Origin: a virus
Length of the DNA stretch: 12,430 bases
Virus genome (UHGV): UHGV-0392688
Direction: 5' to 3' (one strand)
Within the stretch, counting starts at the first letter, position 1. The number at the start of each line of letters is the position of its first letter. The notes beneath the pieces are model-generated. The model was not told the DNA's origin. It was given only the letters and a program-made list of their open reading frames with translations, and searched no databases. Positions 3,636 to 10,009 of this stretch are shown piece by piece. Position numbers and translations under genes: made by a program.

Positions 3636-4680
3636 ATTTCAGCGCCCGACGCTGGCAGAAAATATCAGTATGCTCCGTAACGATTTATTCGCCAGGCTGG
3701 ACGTCAGCGACACGCTCCGGCGCATGGATGAAGACGTGCGGGCAAAGGTGTATGCGGCGGCGCTGCATACGGTTTACGGTTACATCGATTATCTGGCAAT
3801 GAACATGCTGCCTGATCTGTGCGATGAGTCCTGGCTGGCGCGACATGCTGCGATGAAACGGTGTCCGCGCAAGGGGGCCACGGCTGCCAGCGGGTATATG
3901 CGCTGGGAAGGTGTCAGCGATGGCCTGAAGGTGACCGCCGGGAGTGTTATTCAGCGCGATGACCTGGTTCAGTACACGGCAACTGCCGATGCAATCAGCA
4001 CTGGTGGTGTCCTGCGTGTGCCGATCACTTGCTCAACTACAGGCGCGGTCGGTAACGCTGACGACGGTACGGCATTAATCCTGGTCACGCCGGTGAATGG
4101 TCTGCCGTCTTCCGGTGTGGCTGACACCCTGACAGGCGGATTTGATACTGAAGAGCTGGAAACGTGGCGCGCCCGCGTCATTGAGCGGTATTACTGGACG
4201 CCTCAGGGCGGGGCTGACGGGGACTATGTCGTCTGGGCTAAAGAAGTGCCCGGCATTACCCGCGCATGGACATACCGACACTGGATGGGAACGGGGACTG
4301 TCGGTGTGATGATTGCCAGCAGTGACCTGATTAATCCCATTCCGGAAGAGTCAACGGAAACGGCGGCAAGACAACATATCGAGCCACTGGCCCCGGTGGC
4401 AGGCTCTGATTTGTATGTATTCAGGCCGGTGGCGCATAAAGTGGATTTTCATATCCGCGTGACGCCGGACACACCGGAAATACGGGCTGCCATCACCGCC
4501 GAGTTGCGTTCGTTCCTGCTGCGTGATGGTTATCCGCAGGGAGAACTGAAGGTGTCACGTATCAGTGAAGCGATTTCCGGTGCGAACGGGGAATACAGCC
4601 ATCAGTTGCTTGCCCCGGCGGACAATATCTCCATTGCAAAAAATGAGCTGGCGGTTCTGGGGACGATTTCATGGACGTGA
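3622..4680 (+). CDS. Baseplate J-like protein (Mu gp47-like)
   Basis: 352-aa ORF of the size and position of baseplate J family proteins; overlaps the upstream gene by 14 nt. Confidence 0.6.
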
Positions 4681-5255
4681 CAAACGATGATTATATCCGT
4701 CTGTTGTCGGCACTGTTGCCGCCCGGTCCGGCGTGGTCAGTCAGCGATCCGGCGATTGCCGGTGCGGCACCGTCATTAACCCGCGTTCATCAGCGTGCGG
4801 ATGCCCTGATGCGGGAGCTGGATCCGCGCACCACCACTGAACTGATAAACCGCTGGGAGCGTCTGTGCGGTCTGCCGGATGAATGTATTCCCGCAGGGAC
4901 ACAGACCCTTCGCCAGCGTCAGCAACGGCTGGATGCGAAGGTTAATCTGGCGGGCGGCATCAATGAGGATTTTTATCTTGCACAGCTTGCTGCCCTGGGC
5001 AGACCAGACGCCACTATCACGCGATACGATAAAAGCACGTTCACCTGCTCATCGGCCTGTACTGACGCAGTGAATGCGCCGGAATGGCGGTATTACTGGC
5101 AGGTCAACATGCCAGCCGCCACCAACACCACCTGGATGACATGTGGCGATCCCTGTGATTCCGCACTGCGTATCTGGGGCGACACCGTTGTCGAGTGCGT
5201 GCTTAACAAACTCTGCCCTTCGCATACCTACGTAATTTTTAAATATCCGGAGTAA
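4671..5255 (+). CDS. Tail protein, DUF2313 family (Mu gp48-like / YmfQ-like)
   Basis: 194-aa ORF directly after the baseplate J-like gene and before the tail fibre; size and context match the Mu gp48 / e14 YmfQ family. Confidence 0.55.
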
Positions 5256-5258
5256 TCC

Positions 5259-5906
5259 ATGCATCGTATAGACACGAAAACCGCGCAGAAGGATAAGTTC
5301 GGCGCGGGTAAGAACGGTTTTACCCGTGGTAACCCCCAGACCGGCACACCTGCCACCGATCTGGATGATGACTACTTTGACATGTTGCAGGAGGAGCTTT
5401 GCAGCGTTGTGGAGGCATCCGGTGCCAGCCTGGAGAAGGGGCGGCACGACCAGCTGCTTACCGCGCTTCGTGCGCTGCTGTTAAGCCGCAAGAATCCGTT
5501 TGGTGATATCAAATCGGATGGCACGGTGAAAACGGCTCTCGAAAACCTTGGTTTAGGAGAAGCGGCGAAAAGGGATGTGGGCACAGGAGATAATCAGATA
5601 CCGGATATGGGAGCATTCGCTTCTGGTTCGGGATGGTTCAGGCTACCAGGTGGATATATTGTTCAGTTTGGCACTTTTGCAGGAAACACGACCCGCTTTA
5701 TCAGTGGACACTTCCCTATACCATTCCCTAATCAGCCGATGGTTTCAGTCAGTGTTATGTCTGATGCCGTTCAGTCAGACCCGTCGAATCCTGCCCCGCA
5801 GGTTTTGTCTGTAAATTTTGAACATATCAGTAATTCAGCGTGGCGTGTGGCAACCAGTGATATCTCACAGCAATACAGATTCAGTTATATTTCGATAGGA
5901 CGGTAG
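5259..5906 (+). CDS. Short tail-fibre protein: constant N-terminal part (about residues 1-97) fused to a variable C-terminal part encoded inside the invertible segment
   Basis: 215-aa ORF. A 26-bp Hin/Gin-type crossover site lies inside the coding sequence at 5536-5561 (codons for ...ENLGLGE...). It is followed by a tail-fibre assembly gene. Resembles short e14-type tail fibres by eye. Confidence 0.6.
5536..5561. repeat. Left inversion crossover site (hix/gix/pix-like, 26 bp)
   Basis: CTCTCGAAAACC TT GGTTTAGGAGAA: two 12-bp half-sites around a 2-bp core, matching the AAAACC-NN-GGTTT pattern of Hin-family sites. The inner half-site is an 11/12 inverted repeat of the inner half-site at 7364-7375. 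Confidence 0.65.
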
Positions 5907-5908
5907 AA

Positions 5909-6349
5909 ATGCAGAAATATATTTTCAGTGCCGATAAAAATGCGTTTTTCCCTGTGGAGCTTAAAATCGCTTATCAGGAATCCGGCGAATGGCCCGGTGA
6001 TGGAATCGAAATTGACGACACTGTTGCCGCCGAATTTATGAAGGAAGCACCAGAAGGAAAATACAGAGGTGTCATCGACGGAATGCCTGCATGGATTGAT
6101 ATTCCACCGCCAACTCATGAGGAACAAATTGCCGCAGCCGAACTGGAAAAGCAGCAATTGATTAATCAGGTCAACGAATACATAAACAGTAAGCAATGGC
6201 CTGGTAAAGCGGCGATTGGTCGCCTGAAAGGTGAGGAACTGGCGCAATATAATTTGTGGCTGGATTATCTGGACGCACTGGAACTGGTCGATACTTCTGG
6301 TGCGCCAGATATTGAATGGCCTACGCCTCCGGCAGTTCAGGCCAGATGA
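5909..6349 (+). CDS. Tail fibre assembly protein (Tfa/U-like), partner of the currently expressed fibre variant
   Basis: 146-aa ORF directly after the fibre gene. Its C-terminal motif (TSGAPDIEWPTPP) is echoed in the convergent gene's C-terminus (TSTAPDVIWPELP), as expected for paralogous assembly proteins. Confidence 0.6.
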   Translation: MQKYIFSADKNAFFPVELKIAYQESGEWPGDGIEIDDTVAAEFMKEAPEGKYRGVIDGMPAWIDIPPPTHEEQIAAAELEKQQLINQVNEYINSKQWPGKAAIGRLKGEELAQYNLWLDYLDALELVDTSGAPDIEWPTPPAVQAR

Positions 6350-6923
6350 CATCCGGCGCGGTGCTGGTATCTGTTGCCGCCACCGCGTCAATGTAATCCA
6401 GCACAGCGTTAAGCCGGGTTGTTTCTGCCTGCGTCAGCTTCCGCCCGGCCCGTAATTTCAGCTGAATCAGACTGATGGAAGCCATTGCAGCATCAATCAG
6501 CGACTGGCGCTTTGCTTCTGCCGCTTCTACTGCGGCACTATGTTGTGCCTCGGTATCCGTCACCCATTTCTCACCATCCCATTTATCATATGGCGTTAAC
6601 GGGGCGATAGTGGTTGTATTTTCAGGGTAATCACCCGGAGCTGTGATTTCTTTCGATTCTCCTGTTTCGGTGCTATAGATGATTTCACCGCGATGGTCTG
6701 GCACATATTCCCATGAGTTAAAATCTGCAGAACGGCAGATTGCATAACCAGCTTTATGTGTAACTGGTGCATCTAAACAAGAACATGCCGGTATACCGAC
6801 GCCAACCGCAAGATATTCAGTTGATGTGGAAATATATTCCCGCGTTTCACCATCATAATTATAAATGGTAATGTCTCCCGCTTTTATGGCAATGAGTTCG
6901 TTATTTAATACGGCTTTATTCAT
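6321..6923 (-). CDS. Tail fibre assembly protein (Tfa/U'-like), alternative orientation
   Basis: 200-aa ORF on the minus strand inside the invertible segment. It follows the alternative fibre C-terminal segment with a 1-nt stop/start overlap at 6923, and its 3' end overlaps the + strand assembly gene (6321-6349). Confidence 0.6.
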   Translation of the reverse strand: MNKAVLNNELIAIKAGDITIYNYDGETREYISTSTEYLAVGVGIPACSCLDAPVTHKAGYAICRSADFNSWEYVPDHRGEIIYSTETGESKEITAPGDYPENTTTIAPLTPYDKWDGEKWVTDTEAQHSAAVEAAEAKRQSLIDAAMASISLIQLKLRAGRKLTQAETTRLNAVLDYIDAVAATDTSTAPDVIWPELPEA

Positions 6924-7377
6924 CAGGCTGCCCTCACGATATAGTTAAATGCGACGTTGCGCGGCCGTGTCTCTGCACCAACGCGAGGCTGACCGCCTGC
7001 AAAATTGGTTGATGATACAGGACCAACCAAATCACCATCGCCAGTTCGTGTGTTCCCGCCATCGGGTAGCGCGCCGGAGCCACCGAATGCACCAATGTAC
7101 GATATGCGGATGTTACTGTGCCCGTGGTTTTGCAGCTGGTCTGTCTGTGATGAACCAAGATTTCTTGACGGGTCTACCCCGCGCCCATCATCCCATCCAC
7201 GAATAAATTCACCGCGTAAATCAGGCAATTTATTTGTCGGGTAAGCCTTTGCCAGTTCCGGGTATTCTTCAGCAGAAAAAGCCGCACCATTGCATTTCAA
7301 CCAGCCTGTTGGCGGAGTGGCTGAAGGCCACGGAACAGGCACCCCAACAGGTAATGCTGAGCCTTCTCCCAAACCAA
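6923..7377 (-). CDS. Promoterless alternative tail-fibre C-terminal segment (tail-collar-like), expressed only after inversion fuses it to the constant N-terminus
   Basis: The minus-strand frame is open from the crossover site (...KVGLGEGSALPVG...) with no ATG; the ORF track's start at 7372 is a TTG. It encodes the same LGLGE junction peptide as the left site. The region ...AAFSAEEYPELAKAYPTNKLPDLRGEFIRGWDDGRG... resembles phage tail-collar/fibre C-terminal domains. Confidence 0.55.
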
Positions 7378-7389
7378 CCTTTCAAATAT
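7364..7389. repeat. Right inversion crossover site (inverted copy)
   Basis: TTCTCCCAAACC AA CCTTTCAAATAT; its reverse complement ...TT GGTTTGGGAGAA matches the left site's core and inner half-site at 11/12 positions. Confidence 0.6.
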
Positions 7390-7416
7390 TTTTCTGAATC
7401 AGGTGATATTTCGCCT

Positions 7417-7443
7417 CTTCTCCTGTTTTTACAACAGGAGAAG
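7417..7443 (+). promoter_or_regulatory. Perfect 11-bp stem hairpin enclosing the invertase Shine-Dalgarno
   Basis: CTTCTCCTGTT (7417-7427), loop TTTAC, AACAGGAGAAG (7433-7443). The AGGAG at 7436-7440 is the only plausible RBS for the ATG at 7449. Confidence 0.45.
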
Positions 7444-7448
7444 CACTC

Positions 7449-8012
7449 ATGATTTACGGGTATGTTCGTGTATCAACAAATCATCAGGATACAGAGTTGC
7501 AACGTCTTGCACTTGAGTCAGCTGGCTGTGAGCGAATTTATGAAGAATATGCCAGTGGCAGAACAGCTAATCGCCCTGTGTTAAAGGAATTAATTACGGT
7601 GATGAAAAGTGGAGATGAGTTGATTGTCTGGAAGTTAGATCGGATAGGGAGAAATGTGCTGCATGCGCTATTGATGTTTCAAAATCTGCACGAAAAAGGT
7701 GTTAATTTTCGGAGTATTACAGATGGCGTAGACCTGAAAACAGCAAGTGGTCGCTATAATTTCCGTAATATTCTTTCTGCTGCGCAGTATGAATCTGATT
7801 TGAATAGCGAGCGAACTTTAGCTGGTTTGGCTATTGCCAGATCCAAAGGCCGGATTGGTGGGCGTAGACCGAAGTTTAGCGACGAGCAGTGGCAACAGAT
7901 GGGAGCGCTCATAGCGGCAGGGAAATCACGGCGTTATGTTGCACGTATCTATAACGTTGGGCTATCAACCCTATATAAACGATTTCCTGTTACTGGCATT
8001 CAAACGAAATAA
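7449..8012 (+). CDS. pin: Serine recombinase, DNA invertase (Hin/Gin/Pin family)
   Basis: 187 aa. N-terminal YVRVSTNHQ carries the catalytic serine; GRIGGRRPK and a C-terminal helix-turn-helix (LSTLYKRF) are typical of the family. Sits directly next to the invertible segment. Confidence 0.8.
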   Translation: MIYGYVRVSTNHQDTELQRLALESAGCERIYEEYASGRTANRPVLKELITVMKSGDELIVWKLDRIGRNVLHALLMFQNLHEKGVNFRSITDGVDLKTASGRYNFRNILSAAQYESDLNSERTLAGLAIARSKGRIGGRRPKFSDEQWQQMGALIAAGKSRRYVARIYNVGLSTLYKRFPVTGIQTK

Positions 8013-8052
8013 TTTAAAAGCAATTTAAAGAGTTATTTGTCTAATGTTGGAA

Positions 8053-8088
8053 GCCGCAGCCACGTCGTATGCAAGAACGTGCTGCGGC
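8053..8088. terminator. GC-rich hairpin between convergent invertase and dinI-like genes (terminator or recombination-site candidate)
   Basis: GCCGCAGCCACG ... CGTGCTGCGGC imperfect inverted repeat with a 13-nt loop. There is no clear U-tract on either side, so its role is uncertain. Confidence 0.3.
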
Positions 8089-8155
8089 TGGCTGGCGAAC
8101 TTTCGATAGTGCGAGTATTGAATGATTTCCAGCCGTTACCGATTTTACGTGTTAA

Positions 8156-8404
8156 TTAGTGAACAAACCACTCGTCAGCAGATTCCCAGGTATCTTTCAG
8201 AGTCTCCTGAACAAAAGTTTTTGCAGAATCCTTATCTGCGGTGCGTGTAACAGAAAGGCCATCGTTGCTGGTGGCTTTTACGATCACCTCTACATCGTCA
8301 TAACGTTTACTGATGCGTCGGGTTAATTCTTCCTTTAACGCATCCACAGCACCGGTTGGCATTTTAGTCATTTTTTCTTTGGCTATGCAGATTTCAATAC
8401 GCAT
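8156..8404 (-). CDS. dinI: DinI-family protein (SOS-inducible RecA modulator-like)
   Basis: 82 aa, [11 protein letters not shown]...[11 protein letters not shown], matching the DinI family pattern (MRIE...ETWESAD.WFV). GAGGG RBS 6 nt upstream. Two LexA boxes lie directly upstream. Confidence 0.75.
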
Positions 8405-8465: not shown

Positions 8466-9563
8466 TCAAGAGGCCTTATTTCTGCTCCTTTGGAGCTCTT
8501 CAAAACGATTATGTAAAGATTTCGGATACAGTTCGGTATATACCTGCCATAGCACGTTTAATGAACGATGCCCTGTAACCTGGGCGACTTCCTCAATACT
8601 AAAACCAGCCTCAAATAAGCGACTTGCCCCTTCTCTACGCAAATCATGGTATCGCAGATCTTTAATACCTAATTTGCTTCTTACCCTCTGGAATCCCGCA
8701 GTAACAGAAGTGCTGTTATATGGAAAAATGAATTCTGATTTTTTGGGTTGTCGTTGGACGATATCCCAGGCTTCCCCAAGCAAGGCTACTTTCATATGGT
8801 TGCCTTCCTTTTTACGTGGATCTTTCCTGTCTCTTACGAGTATGGATTTTTGTTCCTGATCGAGATCCTCCCATCGTAATCGGCATACTTCACCGATTCG
8901 CATACATGACCACACAGAAAATTTGAGGATATCAACGAACGGAATTTTTGAGCATTTATGTGTAGATCGTTGTTGAAGACCTTCAATGAGCATGTCCAGT
9001 TCATCAGATGCCGGTCTACGATTACGACGATTTGATTTACCAATTAAACCAAGTTTAAGTAGATATGGACGAGCGGCTTTTGCTGGGTTTGATGTGTAAT
9101 TAATTCCATATACAGGTTTGGCAGCATCCAGAACACTGCCAAGATAACTAACATCGTGGCTAACTGTAGCTGGACCTGCACCAGCGTTGTTTCTTAGCCT
9201 GCAATGTTCAATTACGTCATTTTCTGTCAGTTCAGATAGTTTGAGCGCGGAGACGTCACTATCCATAAGCAGTTCCAGCACATATCTTTTAGTACGGCCT
9301 GCTTTACCTCCGGCATTTGGGTCATTTAAATATTTGTGTAGTAAGTCACGGACTGTAAGTCCGTCAACTGCATTTGATGATGGAATGCCATATAGATCTA
9401 ATTCCATCACTTTCTGTGTGCCCCATGTTTTGGCATGAGCATGTTTAGGGAATGTTTTACTTTCCCTGTAAGTGATAACACCTTTTTCTTTGATAATCAC
9501 ATTACAGCGATAGCGTGGTGTGCCATCGGATTTTAGTCGTTTCTCTATGTTATAGTATGCCAT
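8466..9563 (-). CDS. int: Tyrosine site-specific recombinase (phage integrase)
   Basis: 365 aa. The C-terminal catalytic region has the R...HxxR...H...Y pattern (CMRIGEV..., RYHDLRREG, VTGHRSLNVLWQVYTEL). GAGG RBS 8 nt upstream of the ATG. Confidence 0.8.
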   Translation of the reverse strand: MAYYNIEKRLKSDGTPRYRCNVIIKEKGVITYRESKTFPKHAHAKTWGTQKVMELDLYGIPSSNAVDGLTVRDLLHKYLNDPNAGGKAGRTKRYVLELLMDSDVSALKLSELTENDVIEHCRLRNNAGAGPATVSHDVSYLGSVLDAAKPVYGINYTSNPAKAARPYLLKLGLIGKSNRRNRRPASDELDMLIEGLQQRSTHKCSKIPFVDILKFSVWSCMRIGEVCRLRWEDLDQEQKSILVRDRKDPRKKEGNHMKVALLGEAWDIVQRQPKKSEFIFPYNSTSVTAGFQRVRSKLGIKDLRYHDLRREGASRLFEAGFSIEEVAQVTGHRSLNVLWQVYTELYPKSLHNRFEELQRSRNKAS

Positions 9564-9606: not shown

Positions 9607-10009
9607 TGTGCGGGAACCTAACGCGAGAAAAATAGCCTGAAATGTTCAAAAATGCACGATAATCATGAAACACAAAAAATTAATCAAACCAGCGTGATGC
9701 CTGAAAAAACTGGTGTTTACTGGAATTCTCGGTTTAGCATTGCTCCTATGCTCGATAGGATGTACCGTTGTTGAAAAACAACTAGTTATACACTTTGTGG
9801 GAGCCTATTGGGAACCTGTTATTCTTAGAAAGCATCATTTGCTCATCACTTCAATTGACCATGATTAAAGCCAGCTATAAACTTGACAAACAAGGTAACT
9901 AGTTGCTTAGGCCTAAGTGGGCACACCATAAGAAGCGCATGTTGGTGATGAAGCAACCTATGAAGAATCAAGAATAATTACAAAGTTCACTATCTTTGAG
10001 GTTTCTTAT

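What the first reader, a model, noticed from the sequence alone, without database searches (positions are those of the whole stretch)
5536..7389. Intact invertible tail-fibre host-range switch with both crossover sites identifiable
Seen in sequence: two 26-bp sites in inverted orientation (5536-5561 and 7364-7389) share the core and inner half-site at 11/12 positions and have complementary cores (TT/AA). The left site lies inside the tail-fibre ORF at the LGLGE codons. The right site lies in an open minus-strand frame encoding the same LGLGE peptide, followed by a promoterless alternative C-terminus and its own assembly gene. Established knowledge: this matches the Mu G-segment, P1 C-segment and e14 P-region systems driven by Gin/Cin/Pin invertases. 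Inference: inversion swaps the fibre's receptor-binding C-terminus and its chaperone, and the window captures one of the two orientations.
Basis: partly seen in the sequence, partly recalled or inferred. Interest (0 to 1): 0.55.

Follow-up and report, generated by a model that had tools for sequence, protein, structure and literature searches.

The report
Invertible phage tail-fibre switch, e14 type
This is an intact copy of a textbook phage device, a 1.8-kb DNA segment that a neighbouring enzyme flips to give the tail fibre a different tip, so the switch is ordinary, although its enzyme belongs to an unstudied branch of the family.

Summary
Two 26-bp Din-family crossover sites lie in inverted orientation at 5536-5561 and 7364-7389. 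The left site matches e14 pixL at 25/26 positions. The right site matches pixR at 14/14 over the inner half plus core.

The sites bound an 1830-bp segment (5548-7377). Flipping it in silico keeps the fibre in frame. The fibre changes from a 215-aa protein with a gp53-like tip and its chaperone to a 247-aa protein with a Collar/HxH tip and a second chaperone.

The window is a dusA-integrating SfIV/SKA5-like temperate phage with a Mu-type baseplate. The switch is the orthologue of the e14 P segment: the constant fibre part is 100/101 identical to StfP.

Both predicted inverted junctions exist in public genomes, up to 99.7% identical, and homology breaks exactly at 5548 and 7377. The same phage backbone occurs in both orientations, so the switch flips in nature.

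One feature is not textbook. The invertase is only 49-55% identical to Gin, Cin and PinE. It lacks several Fis/enhancer-contact and autoinhibition residues, lacks the classical pair of Fis sites, uses a clade-specific proximal half-site (CCTTT), and has a conserved hairpin over its ribosome-binding site.

Verdict: new member of a known kind, low-to-moderate interest.

The parts
4671..5255 (+). Baseplate protein (Mu gp48 / YmfQ family). It is the last gene before the fibre and is given as context for the fibre operon.
   Evidence: Pfam Phage_Mu_Gp48, E=3e-26. Annotated as YmfQ in the relatives.
5259..5549 (+). Constant N-terminal part of the tail fibre (Sc, codons 1-97). It carries the only start codon for both fibre versions.
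   Evidence: ORF 5259-5906. Residues 1-101 are 100/101 identical to e14 StfP. Homology to relatives on this strand ends at 5562.
5536..5561 (.). Left crossover site (pixL type). The core TT is at 5548-5549.
   Evidence: It is 25/26 identical to the published pixL. The family motif has 2 hits against 0.01 expected.
5548..7377 (.). Invertible segment, 1830 bp (the e14 P segment is 1797 bp).
   Evidence: The homology blocks of relatives begin and end exactly at 5548 and 7377 and lie on the opposite strand relative to the flanks. The same block is found in P2-like phages at 94-98% identity.
5550..5906 (+). Sv: the currently expressed variable C-terminus of the fibre, of the gp53-like type.
   Evidence: Pfam Gp53-like_C, residues 128-215, E=1.2e-8. 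There is a weak match to a solved short tail fibre, 9zd7.
5909..6349 (+). Tail fibre assembly protein (146 aa) that goes with Sv.
   Evidence: Pfam Caudo_TAP, E=4.6e-34.
6321..6923 (-). Second tail fibre assembly protein (200 aa, TfaE type) that goes with the silent Sv'. Its 3' end overlaps the first assembly gene by 29 bp, as in e14.
   Evidence: Pfam Caudo_TAP, E=3.3e-32. The two Tfa proteins are 35% identical over their C-terminal 80 aa.
6923..7375 (-). Sv': the silent alternative fibre C-terminus (150 codons). It has no start codon or promoter of its own and is closed upstream by TGA at 7384-7382.
   Evidence: Pfam Collar, E=1.7e-15. It matches the receptor-binding parts of T4-type short and long tail fibres (9cuy at 7e-23, 2xgf at 2.5e-14, 1ocy) and contains an HxH motif (NHGHS). 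It is 58% identical to e14 StfE. After in-silico inversion it is in frame and gives a 247-aa fibre.
7364..7389 (.). Right crossover site. The core AA is at 7376-7377. The inner half is classical. The outer half, CCTTTCAAATAT, is specific to this invertase clade.
   Evidence: It matches pixR at 14/14 over the inner half plus core and at 6/12 over the outer half. The outer half is conserved as AAACC-AA-CCTTT upstream of related invertases in many loci from other enterobacterial genera. The exact 26-mer occurs in 22 IMG/VR contigs.
7401..7443 (+). Two conserved stem-loops in the invertase leader. The second (7417-7443) is an 11-bp stem with a 5-nt loop and buries the Shine-Dalgarno AGGAG (7436-7440). 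It is also a 25-bp palindrome of the form TTCTCC-N13-GGAGAA.
   Evidence: MFE is -24 kcal/mol with z=-4.9. It is conserved in 7 sequences from 6 genera, with one compensatory pair U-A to C-G.
7449..8012 (+). Serine DNA invertase (187 aa) with catalytic Ser9. It belongs to a divergent clade of the Din family.
   Evidence: Pfam Resolvase plus HTH_7. The best solved relative is Gin (3uj3, E=1e-56). It is 49-55% identical to Gin, Cin and PinE, which are 74-95% identical to each other. It is 100% identical in E. coli GZ2408P and phage SKA5.

Best explanation
The window holds a working two-state tail-fibre switch of the e14 P-segment type. It sits in an apparently complete SfIV/SKA5-like temperate phage that integrates at dusA.

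The fibre gene starts at 5259. Its first 97 codons are fixed. Everything after Leu-97 lies inside an 1830-bp segment (5548-7377) bounded by two inverted 26-bp sites.

The serine invertase encoded next door (7449-8012) is proposed to act as follows. It binds both sites and cuts them at the central TT/AA dinucleotide. It then rotates one half of the complex by 180 degrees and rejoins the ends, which turns the segment around.

In the orientation captured here, the phage makes a 215-aa fibre with a gp53-like tip plus a 146-aa assembly protein. After inversion it would make a 247-aa fibre with a Collar/HxH tip related to the T4 gp12 and gp37 tips, plus a 200-aa assembly protein.

Shown here: the sites, the reading frames, the intact genes, and the existence of both orientations in nature with breakpoints at the core.

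Inferred: the chemistry, taken from the Hin/Gin family, and the consequence that a lysate contains two particle types with different receptor specificity.
For: - Sites and frames.
- Motif statistics: 2 hits against 0.01 expected.
- Only two sites in the window.
- Published pixL/pixR and the Din consensus (PMC3241671).
- Protein families of all six genes.
- Invertase most similar to Gin among solved structures.
- Orthology with e14: constant part 100/101 identical to StfP, Sv' 58% identical to StfE, same gene order.
- Experimental inversion of the e14 segment at the same repeat, TTGGTTTGGGAGAAGG (PMC12529663; PMC4272514).
- Population test. The in-silico inverted left junction is contiguous in 3 E. 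coli genomes at 96%, and its first ~600 bases (through the junction) in many more at up to 98.7%. The inverted right junction is contiguous in 12 genomes, best 99.7%. The present junctions are found in 19 and 17 genomes.
- Blast breakpoints fall exactly at 5548 and 7377, with the segment on the opposite strand.
- IMG/VR contigs with the same baseplate genes (96-98%) and the same invertase (98-100%) occur in both orientations. L036, L037 and L039 are like the window. L040, L041, L042, L044, L045, L046 and L048 are inverted.
Against: - No reads from the source sample were available, so inversion of this particular molecule was not observed.
- The mixture of orientations among relatives could partly reflect cassette exchange by homologous recombination, because cassettes are clearly mosaic.
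- The right site's outer half matches the classical consensus poorly.
- The invertase lacks residues that Hin needs for Fis-activated inversion.
- The receptor specificity of either tip is unknown.
Confidence: 0.88

Rival explanations
1. The switch is a frozen relic. The sites and the silent cassette are inherited, but the segment no longer inverts in this phage. On this view the opposite arrangements seen elsewhere arose by homologous recombination between mosaic phages, not by site-specific inversion.
For: - Cassettes are heavily mosaic. The same segment sits behind P2-type, lambdoid and Mu-type fibre stems.
- Some relatives have lost the invertase and half the segment and are locked (L003 and L004; L006).
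- The right outer half-site matches the consensus poorly.
Against: - The invertase ORF is intact and 100% identical in other genomes.
- The clade-specific half-site and the leader structure are conserved across genera.
- Homology breaks at the 2-bp core and not at variable points.
- Both orientations occur beside flanks that are 99-100% identical.
Confidence: 0.07
2. The segment does invert, but the main benefit is to the lysogen, not to phage host range. The model is the e14 case, where the inverted state produces a chimeric protein (StfE2) that blocks adsorption of phage T2.
For: PMC12529663 reports this for the orthologous e14 segment. The constant part and the site sequences are nearly the same here.
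Against: - StfE2 of e14 begins at a start codon outside the segment on the invertase side. Here that frame is closed by TGA 7384-7382, two codons from the core (and my reading), so no equivalent chimera can start outside.
- Unlike e14, this element has a complete set of baseplate, fibre and assembly genes and matches a phage deposited as a complete genome (SKA5). A role in virion host range is therefore the simpler reading.
Confidence: 0.05

Closest known systems
P segment of cryptic prophage e14 of E. coli K-12 (stfP-tfaP / tfaE-stfE, pinE; pixL and pixR)
   Same: - Same gene order and same position behind ymfQ.
- Constant fibre part 100/101 identical.
- Left site 25/26 identical. Inner half and core of the right site identical.
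- Same domain families in both tips, and TfaE-type and TfaP-type chaperones.
- Similar segment length: 1830 against 1797 bp.
   Different: - e14 is a defective remnant. This element has the full baseplate and fibre module and matches a phage deposited as a complete genome.
- The distal tips diverge (55-58% overall).
- The invertase is not PinE (54.9% identity).
- The outer half of the right site is different.
- There is no outside start codon for an StfE2-like chimera.
G segment of phage Mu (Gin) and C segment of phage P1 (Cin)
   Same: - Same logic and layout: constant fibre stem, then Sv and U, then U' and Sv' on the other strand, then the invertase.
- 26-bp sites with a 2-bp core.
- Mu-type baseplate genes upstream.
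   Different: - The segments are 3 and 4.2 kb with much larger, unrelated fibre tips.
- Gin and Cin carry the classical Fis enhancer inside the first 90 nt of the gene (annotated in P1). They also carry the conserved Fis-contact residues, which are not conserved here.
Invertible fibre segments of P2-like prophages of E. coli, Salmonella and Klebsiella
   Same: They carry essentially the same 1.8-kb segment (94-98% identical over most of it), bounded by the same cores. Inversion in P2-like prophages of E. coli has been seen by sequencing (PMC4272514).
   Different: The segment is attached to a long P2 H-type fibre stem and driven by PinE/Cin-type invertases that are 84-88% identical to PinE.
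Multi-site inversion clusters (Min of p15B; the three-site P2-like locus in EPEC)
   Same: Same recombinase family and the same kind of site.
   Different: Those have three or more sites and several alternative tips. This window has only two sites and two tips.

Membership tests
Din-family (Hin/Gin/Cin/Pin) DNA inversion system | Small serine recombinase: N-terminal resolvase catalytic domain with the nucleophilic Ser at position 9/10, plus a C-terminal HTH | tested here: met
   Pfam Resolvase (E=3e-36) plus HTH_7 (E=7e-12). Ser9 lies in YVRVST. The best solved relative is Gin, 1-181 aligned, E=1e-56.
Din-family (Hin/Gin/Cin/Pin) DNA inversion system | Two 26-bp sites in inverted orientation, each made of two 12-bp half-sites around an identical 2-bp core | tested here: met
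   Sites at 5536-5561 and 7364-7389 with cores TT/AA. [quoted passage not shown] Motif hits: 2 against 0.01 expected.
Din-family (Hin/Gin/Cin/Pin) DNA inversion system | Recombinational enhancer with two Fis sites 48 bp apart inside the 5' end of the invertase gene | tested here: not met
   P1 annotates the enhancer at nt 19-90 of cin. I used a degenerate Fis consensus recalled from memory (KNNYRNNWNNYRNNM). It hits at nt 23 and 71 in PinE, Cin, Gin and two P2-type invertase genes. It hits at neither position in this gene or in 7 clade relatives. No 48-bp pair lies within 5000-8100. Third-codon positions over the distal-site region are not conserved. Fis sites are degenerate and enhancers act at a distance, so this does not rule out an enhancer elsewhere.
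Din-family (Hin/Gin/Cin/Pin) DNA inversion system | Residues reported as uniquely conserved in Fis/enhancer-dependent invertases (Hin K47, K/R48, K/R51; Q151, R154, L155) | tested here: not met
   The equivalent residues here are K46, E47, T50, Q150, A153 and L154, so three of six differ (definition from PMC3798978). Among 119 clade homologues these positions vary. Position 153 is R in only 38 and position 50 is basic in only 8.
Din-family (Hin/Gin/Cin/Pin) DNA inversion system | The segment is actually found in both orientations | tested here: met
   Shown at population level only. Inverted junctions occur in E. coli genomes. The same backbone occurs in both orientations in IMG/VR. Breakpoints are at the cores. 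Inversion within one clone could not be tested here.
e14 P-segment (Pin) system | StfP-type constant fibre stem behind ymfQ, with pixL inside it | tested here: met
   100/101 identity over the constant part. The site is 25/26 identical to pixL.
e14 P-segment (Pin) system | PinE-type invertase and pixR | tested here: not met
   The invertase is 54.9% identical to PinE, while PinE-type enzymes are 84-95% identical to each other. pixR matches at 20/26, and its outer half at only 6/12.
Multi-site shufflon-like inversion clusters (Min, EPEC P2-like) | Three or more crossover sites giving more than two arrangements | tested here: not met
   Only two sites score above background in the window.

The most novel reading that the evidence does not exclude
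The invertase that drives this switch may represent a widespread but uncharacterised clade of enterobacterial Din-like invertases, controlled differently from the Hin/Gin/Cin/Pin paradigm.

- All 119 close homologues examined carry Y-N-F-R..I..A..Y in helix E, where the classical enzymes have F-F-F-H..M..L..M. This includes Asn at the position of Hin Phe105. The F105N substitution in Hin gives Fis-independent activity.
- The Fis-contact residues are not conserved in the clade.
- The classical pair of Fis sites in the gene's 5' end is missing.
- The invertase-proximal half-site is CCTTT instead of GGTTT.
- A conserved hairpin, which is also a site-like palindrome, covers the ribosome-binding site.

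Together these features suggest an enzyme that needs no Fis enhancer. It may instead be held in check by very low or autoregulated translation.
Probability: 0.3. Interest if true: 0.5.

Novelty: new member of a known kind. Interest (0 to 1): 0.25.

Why it matters
As a tail-fibre switch this adds nothing conceptually. It confirms that the e14 P segment, known mainly from a dead prophage, is the remnant of a device still in use in apparently intact dusA-integrating phages.

It also shows that the same 1.8-kb cassette pair moves between Mu-type, P2-type and lambdoid fibre stems, with boundaries exactly at the crossover cores. That matters for predicting or engineering host range: one phage genome gives two adsorption specificities, and the orientation in an assembly is arbitrary.

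The more interesting lead is the enzyme. A naturally Fis-independent small invertase that still acts on classical sites would be a useful comparison for how serine recombinases are gated. It could also be a simpler tool for synthetic inversion switches.

Tried and rejected
- Chance inverted repeat. Rejected: the motif is 200-fold enriched and matches published sites.
- Extra sites or a shufflon. None found.
- A 16-nt near-repeat (7409-7424 against 5555-5570) was considered as a relic third site. Its flank lacks the AAACC half-site, so it is not a crossover site. It coincides with the leader hairpins.
- Known RNA family for the leader hairpin. Rfam gave no match anywhere in the window.
- NCBIfam gives no specific family for the invertase or for either fibre tip.
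- Intrinsic terminators or promoters that would explain the hairpin. The scan was at background level and found none at the hairpin.
- Looking for an exact inverted twin of the whole window. The best full-length hits to the inverted left junction (L003, L004) turned out to be locked remnants without an invertase. Better same-backbone examples came from IMG/VR.
- An A/G difference in the inner half-sites was tried as a tracer of inversion. It travels with the gp53-type cassette in L010 but is swapped in L001 without inversion, so it is not a clean tracer.
- A review of DNA invertases could not be retrieved. The literature search on dusA phages gave nothing relevant.
Full report
**What is in the sequence**

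The region reads as the first-stage reader described.
- The left site, 5536-5561, is CTCTCGAAAACC-TT-GGTTTAGGAGAA.
- The right site, 7364-7389, is TTCTCCCAAACC-AA-CCTTTCAAATAT.
- Read on opposite strands, the inner halves agree at 11/12 positions and the central dinucleotides are complementary.

A short imperfect inverted repeat is not remarkable by itself in 12 kb. The family-specific motif is. TTCTCCNAAACCAA occurs exactly twice, at these two places on opposite strands, against 0.01 expected from shuffles. No third site comes close.

The left site lies in the 215-aa fibre ORF (5259-5906) at the codons ALENLGLGE. On the minus strand, the frame entering the right site is closed by a TGA two codons outside the core, then reads K-V-G-L-G-E-G-S-A and so on for 150 codons. 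Inverting 5548-7377 in silico joins C-TT of the constant part to this frame and gives an uninterrupted 247-aa fibre.

**What the genes are**

Upstream lie Mu-type baseplate genes, ending in a gp48/YmfQ protein. Then, in order:
- the fibre, whose present C-terminus is a Gp53-like_C domain;
- a 146-aa Caudo_TAP assembly protein;
- on the other strand, a 200-aa Caudo_TAP protein and a Collar-domain fibre C-terminus;
- a 187-aa Resolvase + HTH_7 recombinase;
- a DinI-like gene and a tyrosine integrase.

The Collar cassette matches the receptor-binding ends of T4-type short and long tail fibres and carries an HxH motif.

The closest records are an E. coli prophage integrated next to dusA (99% identical) and phage SKA5 (98%). 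In the window the integrase is followed by phage early genes and not by dusA. The window therefore comes from a phage-form or circularly permuted sequence.

**Relation to e14**

The layout is that of the e14 P region in E. coli K-12.
- The first 101 residues of the fibre are 100/101 identical to StfP, and the tips then diverge.
- The silent cassette is 58% identical to StfE.
- Compared with the published sites (PMC3241671), the left site is pixL at 25/26. The right site equals pixR over the inner half and core (14/14) but only 6/12 over the outer half.
- The e14 segment of 1797 bp inverts at the same repeat, shown experimentally (PMC12529663; PMC4272514).

**Does it flip?**

I could not see reads, so I asked whether the two predicted recombinant junctions exist in public data.

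Left junction, in E. coli complete genomes:
- The in-silico inverted junction (constant part plus Collar cassette) is contiguous over 800 bases in 3 genomes at 96%. Its first ~600 bases (through the junction) are contiguous in many more, at up to 98.7%.
- The present junction is contiguous in 19 genomes.

Right junction, in E. coli complete genomes:
- The in-silico inverted junction (gp53-type cassette, then the unusual outer half-site, then this invertase) is contiguous in 12 genomes, best 99.7% over 600 bases.
- The present junction is contiguous in 17 genomes.

Local blast against fetched loci shows that homology on the flank strand stops at 5562 and restarts at 7363. The segment lies on the other strand, running exactly from 5548 to 7377.

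Among 22 IMG/VR contigs that hold the exact right site, contigs with the same baseplate genes (96-98%) and the same invertase (98-100%) occur in both states.
- L036, L037 and L039 are like the window.
- L040, L041, L042, L044, L045, L046 and L048 are inverted.

This is what an active switch predicts.

**Cassette traffic**

The same 1.8-kb block, bounded at the same cores, is found in several other settings:
- at 98-99% in another E. coli prophage (L006);
- at 94-98% in P2-like phages of Salmonella and Klebsiella, attached to a P2 H-type stem and in the opposite state;
- behind lambdoid side-fibre stems next to the very same invertase-DinI-integrase module at dusA.

The same Mu-type backbone also occurs with a PinE-type invertase instead of this one (L005). 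The crossover sites therefore also mark module boundaries. This agrees with earlier work on fibre mosaicism cited in PMC3241671.

**The enzyme is not a classical Pin**

Gin, Cin, PinE and two P2-type invertases are 74-95% identical to each other. This protein is 49-55% identical to all of them. The differences fall on functionally mapped positions.
- Work on Hin names K47, K/R48 and K/R51 in helix B, and Q151, R154 and L155 in the DNA-binding domain, as uniquely conserved in Fis/enhancer-dependent invertases. R154A is nearly inactive (PMC3798978). Here the equivalents are K, E, T and Q, A, L.
- Hin Phe105 and Met109 hold the dimer inactive. F105N gives Fis-independent activity in vivo (PMC4513852). 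Here the helix reads Y-N-F-R-N-I where the classical enzymes have F-F-F-H-V-M.

A database search found a large clade of such proteins (77-99% identical) in Escherichia, Salmonella, Citrobacter, Klebsiella, Enterobacter, Serratia, Kluyvera and others, none with a specific name.
- In 119 of them the helix-E signature is invariant.
- In the same 119 the Fis-contact positions drift.

The classical enhancer also seems absent.
- P1 annotates it at nt 19-90 of cin.
- A degenerate Fis consensus, recalled from memory and so a lead only, hits nt 23 and 71, exactly 48 bp apart, in all five classical genes.
- It hits neither position in this gene or in seven clade relatives. No such pair lies near the switch.
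- Synonymous positions are somewhat conserved over codons 1-20 but not over the distal-site codons.

**Two further clade features**

First, the invertase-proximal site is conserved as AAACC-AA-CCTTT in many related loci from other enterobacterial genera. The odd outer half of the right site is therefore a conserved property and not decay.

Second, the leader of the gene forms two hairpins. The second buries the Shine-Dalgarno sequence. It is conserved in seven sequences, with one compensatory pair. It is also a TTCTCC-N13-GGAGAA palindrome that resembles a crossover site lacking its centre. It could act as an RNA structure that limits translation, or as a binding site for the invertase. I cannot tell which.

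**Verdict**

The system is an intact orthologue of the e14 P segment and works like the Mu G and P1 C segments. It is a new member of a known kind.

Host-range change is inferred from the family and was not tested. The one aspect worth a specialist's attention is that the driving invertase belongs to an unstudied clade that fails two defining tests of Fis/enhancer dependence. Whether it truly dispenses with Fis needs an experiment.

Noticed in passing
window 7401-7443: Two conserved hairpins lie in the invertase leader. The 11-bp stem at 7417-7443 sequesters the Shine-Dalgarno AGGAG (7436-7440). The same element is a 25-bp palindrome, TTCTCC-N13-GGAGAA, that resembles a crossover site without its AAACC-NN-GGTTT centre. 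It could limit translation or serve as an autoregulatory binding site.
   Followed up: partly
window 7449-8012: The invertase belongs to a large unnamed enterobacterial clade. The helix-E motif YNFRxIxxAxxY is invariant in the clade and the Fis-contact residues are not conserved. The pair of consensus Fis sites found at nt 23/71 of the classical invertase genes is absent.
   Followed up: partly
window 7409-7424 versus 5555-5570: A 16-nt inverted near-repeat (15/16) links the sequence just inside the left site (AGGAGAAGCGGCGAAA, encoding GEAAK) with the invertase leader outside the right site. It may be a relic of an older cassette end, or it may be coincidence.
   Followed up: partly
window 5555 and 7370; L001 6537 and 8431; L010 8287: A single A/G difference lies in the inner half-sites. 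In the window the A is on the gp53-cassette side. In L010 it is still with that cassette but next to the invertase, as exchange at the core predicts. In L001 it is swapped to the other cassette without inversion. This is unexplained. Independent mutation or a short conversion tract are possible causes.
   Followed up: partly
L010, L011, L013 (E. coli chromosomes at dusA): The same invertase-DinI-integrase module (98.6-99.9% identical) and the same cassettes sit behind lambdoid tail genes (gpJ, Lom, side tail fibre stem) instead of the Mu-type baseplate. Whole tail modules have been swapped at this locus.
   Followed up: partly
L012 (E. coli 19-5) 3910-5373: A shorter variant of the switch (about 1.1 kb between sites) occurs on the same backbone. 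It has two gp53-type tips and only one assembly gene.
   Followed up: no
window 8156-8404 and 8466-9563: A DinI-like gene and a tyrosine integrase follow the invertase on the minus strand. In the prophage relatives the next gene is dusA. In the window, phage early genes follow instead, so the window is in the phage (excised or permuted) configuration.
   Followed up: partly
window 9663-9725: This is the only pair of degenerate Fis-consensus matches exactly 48 bp apart in the whole window. It lies just beyond the integrase gene, in the likely attP region. About 0.6 such pairs are expected by chance.
   Followed up: no
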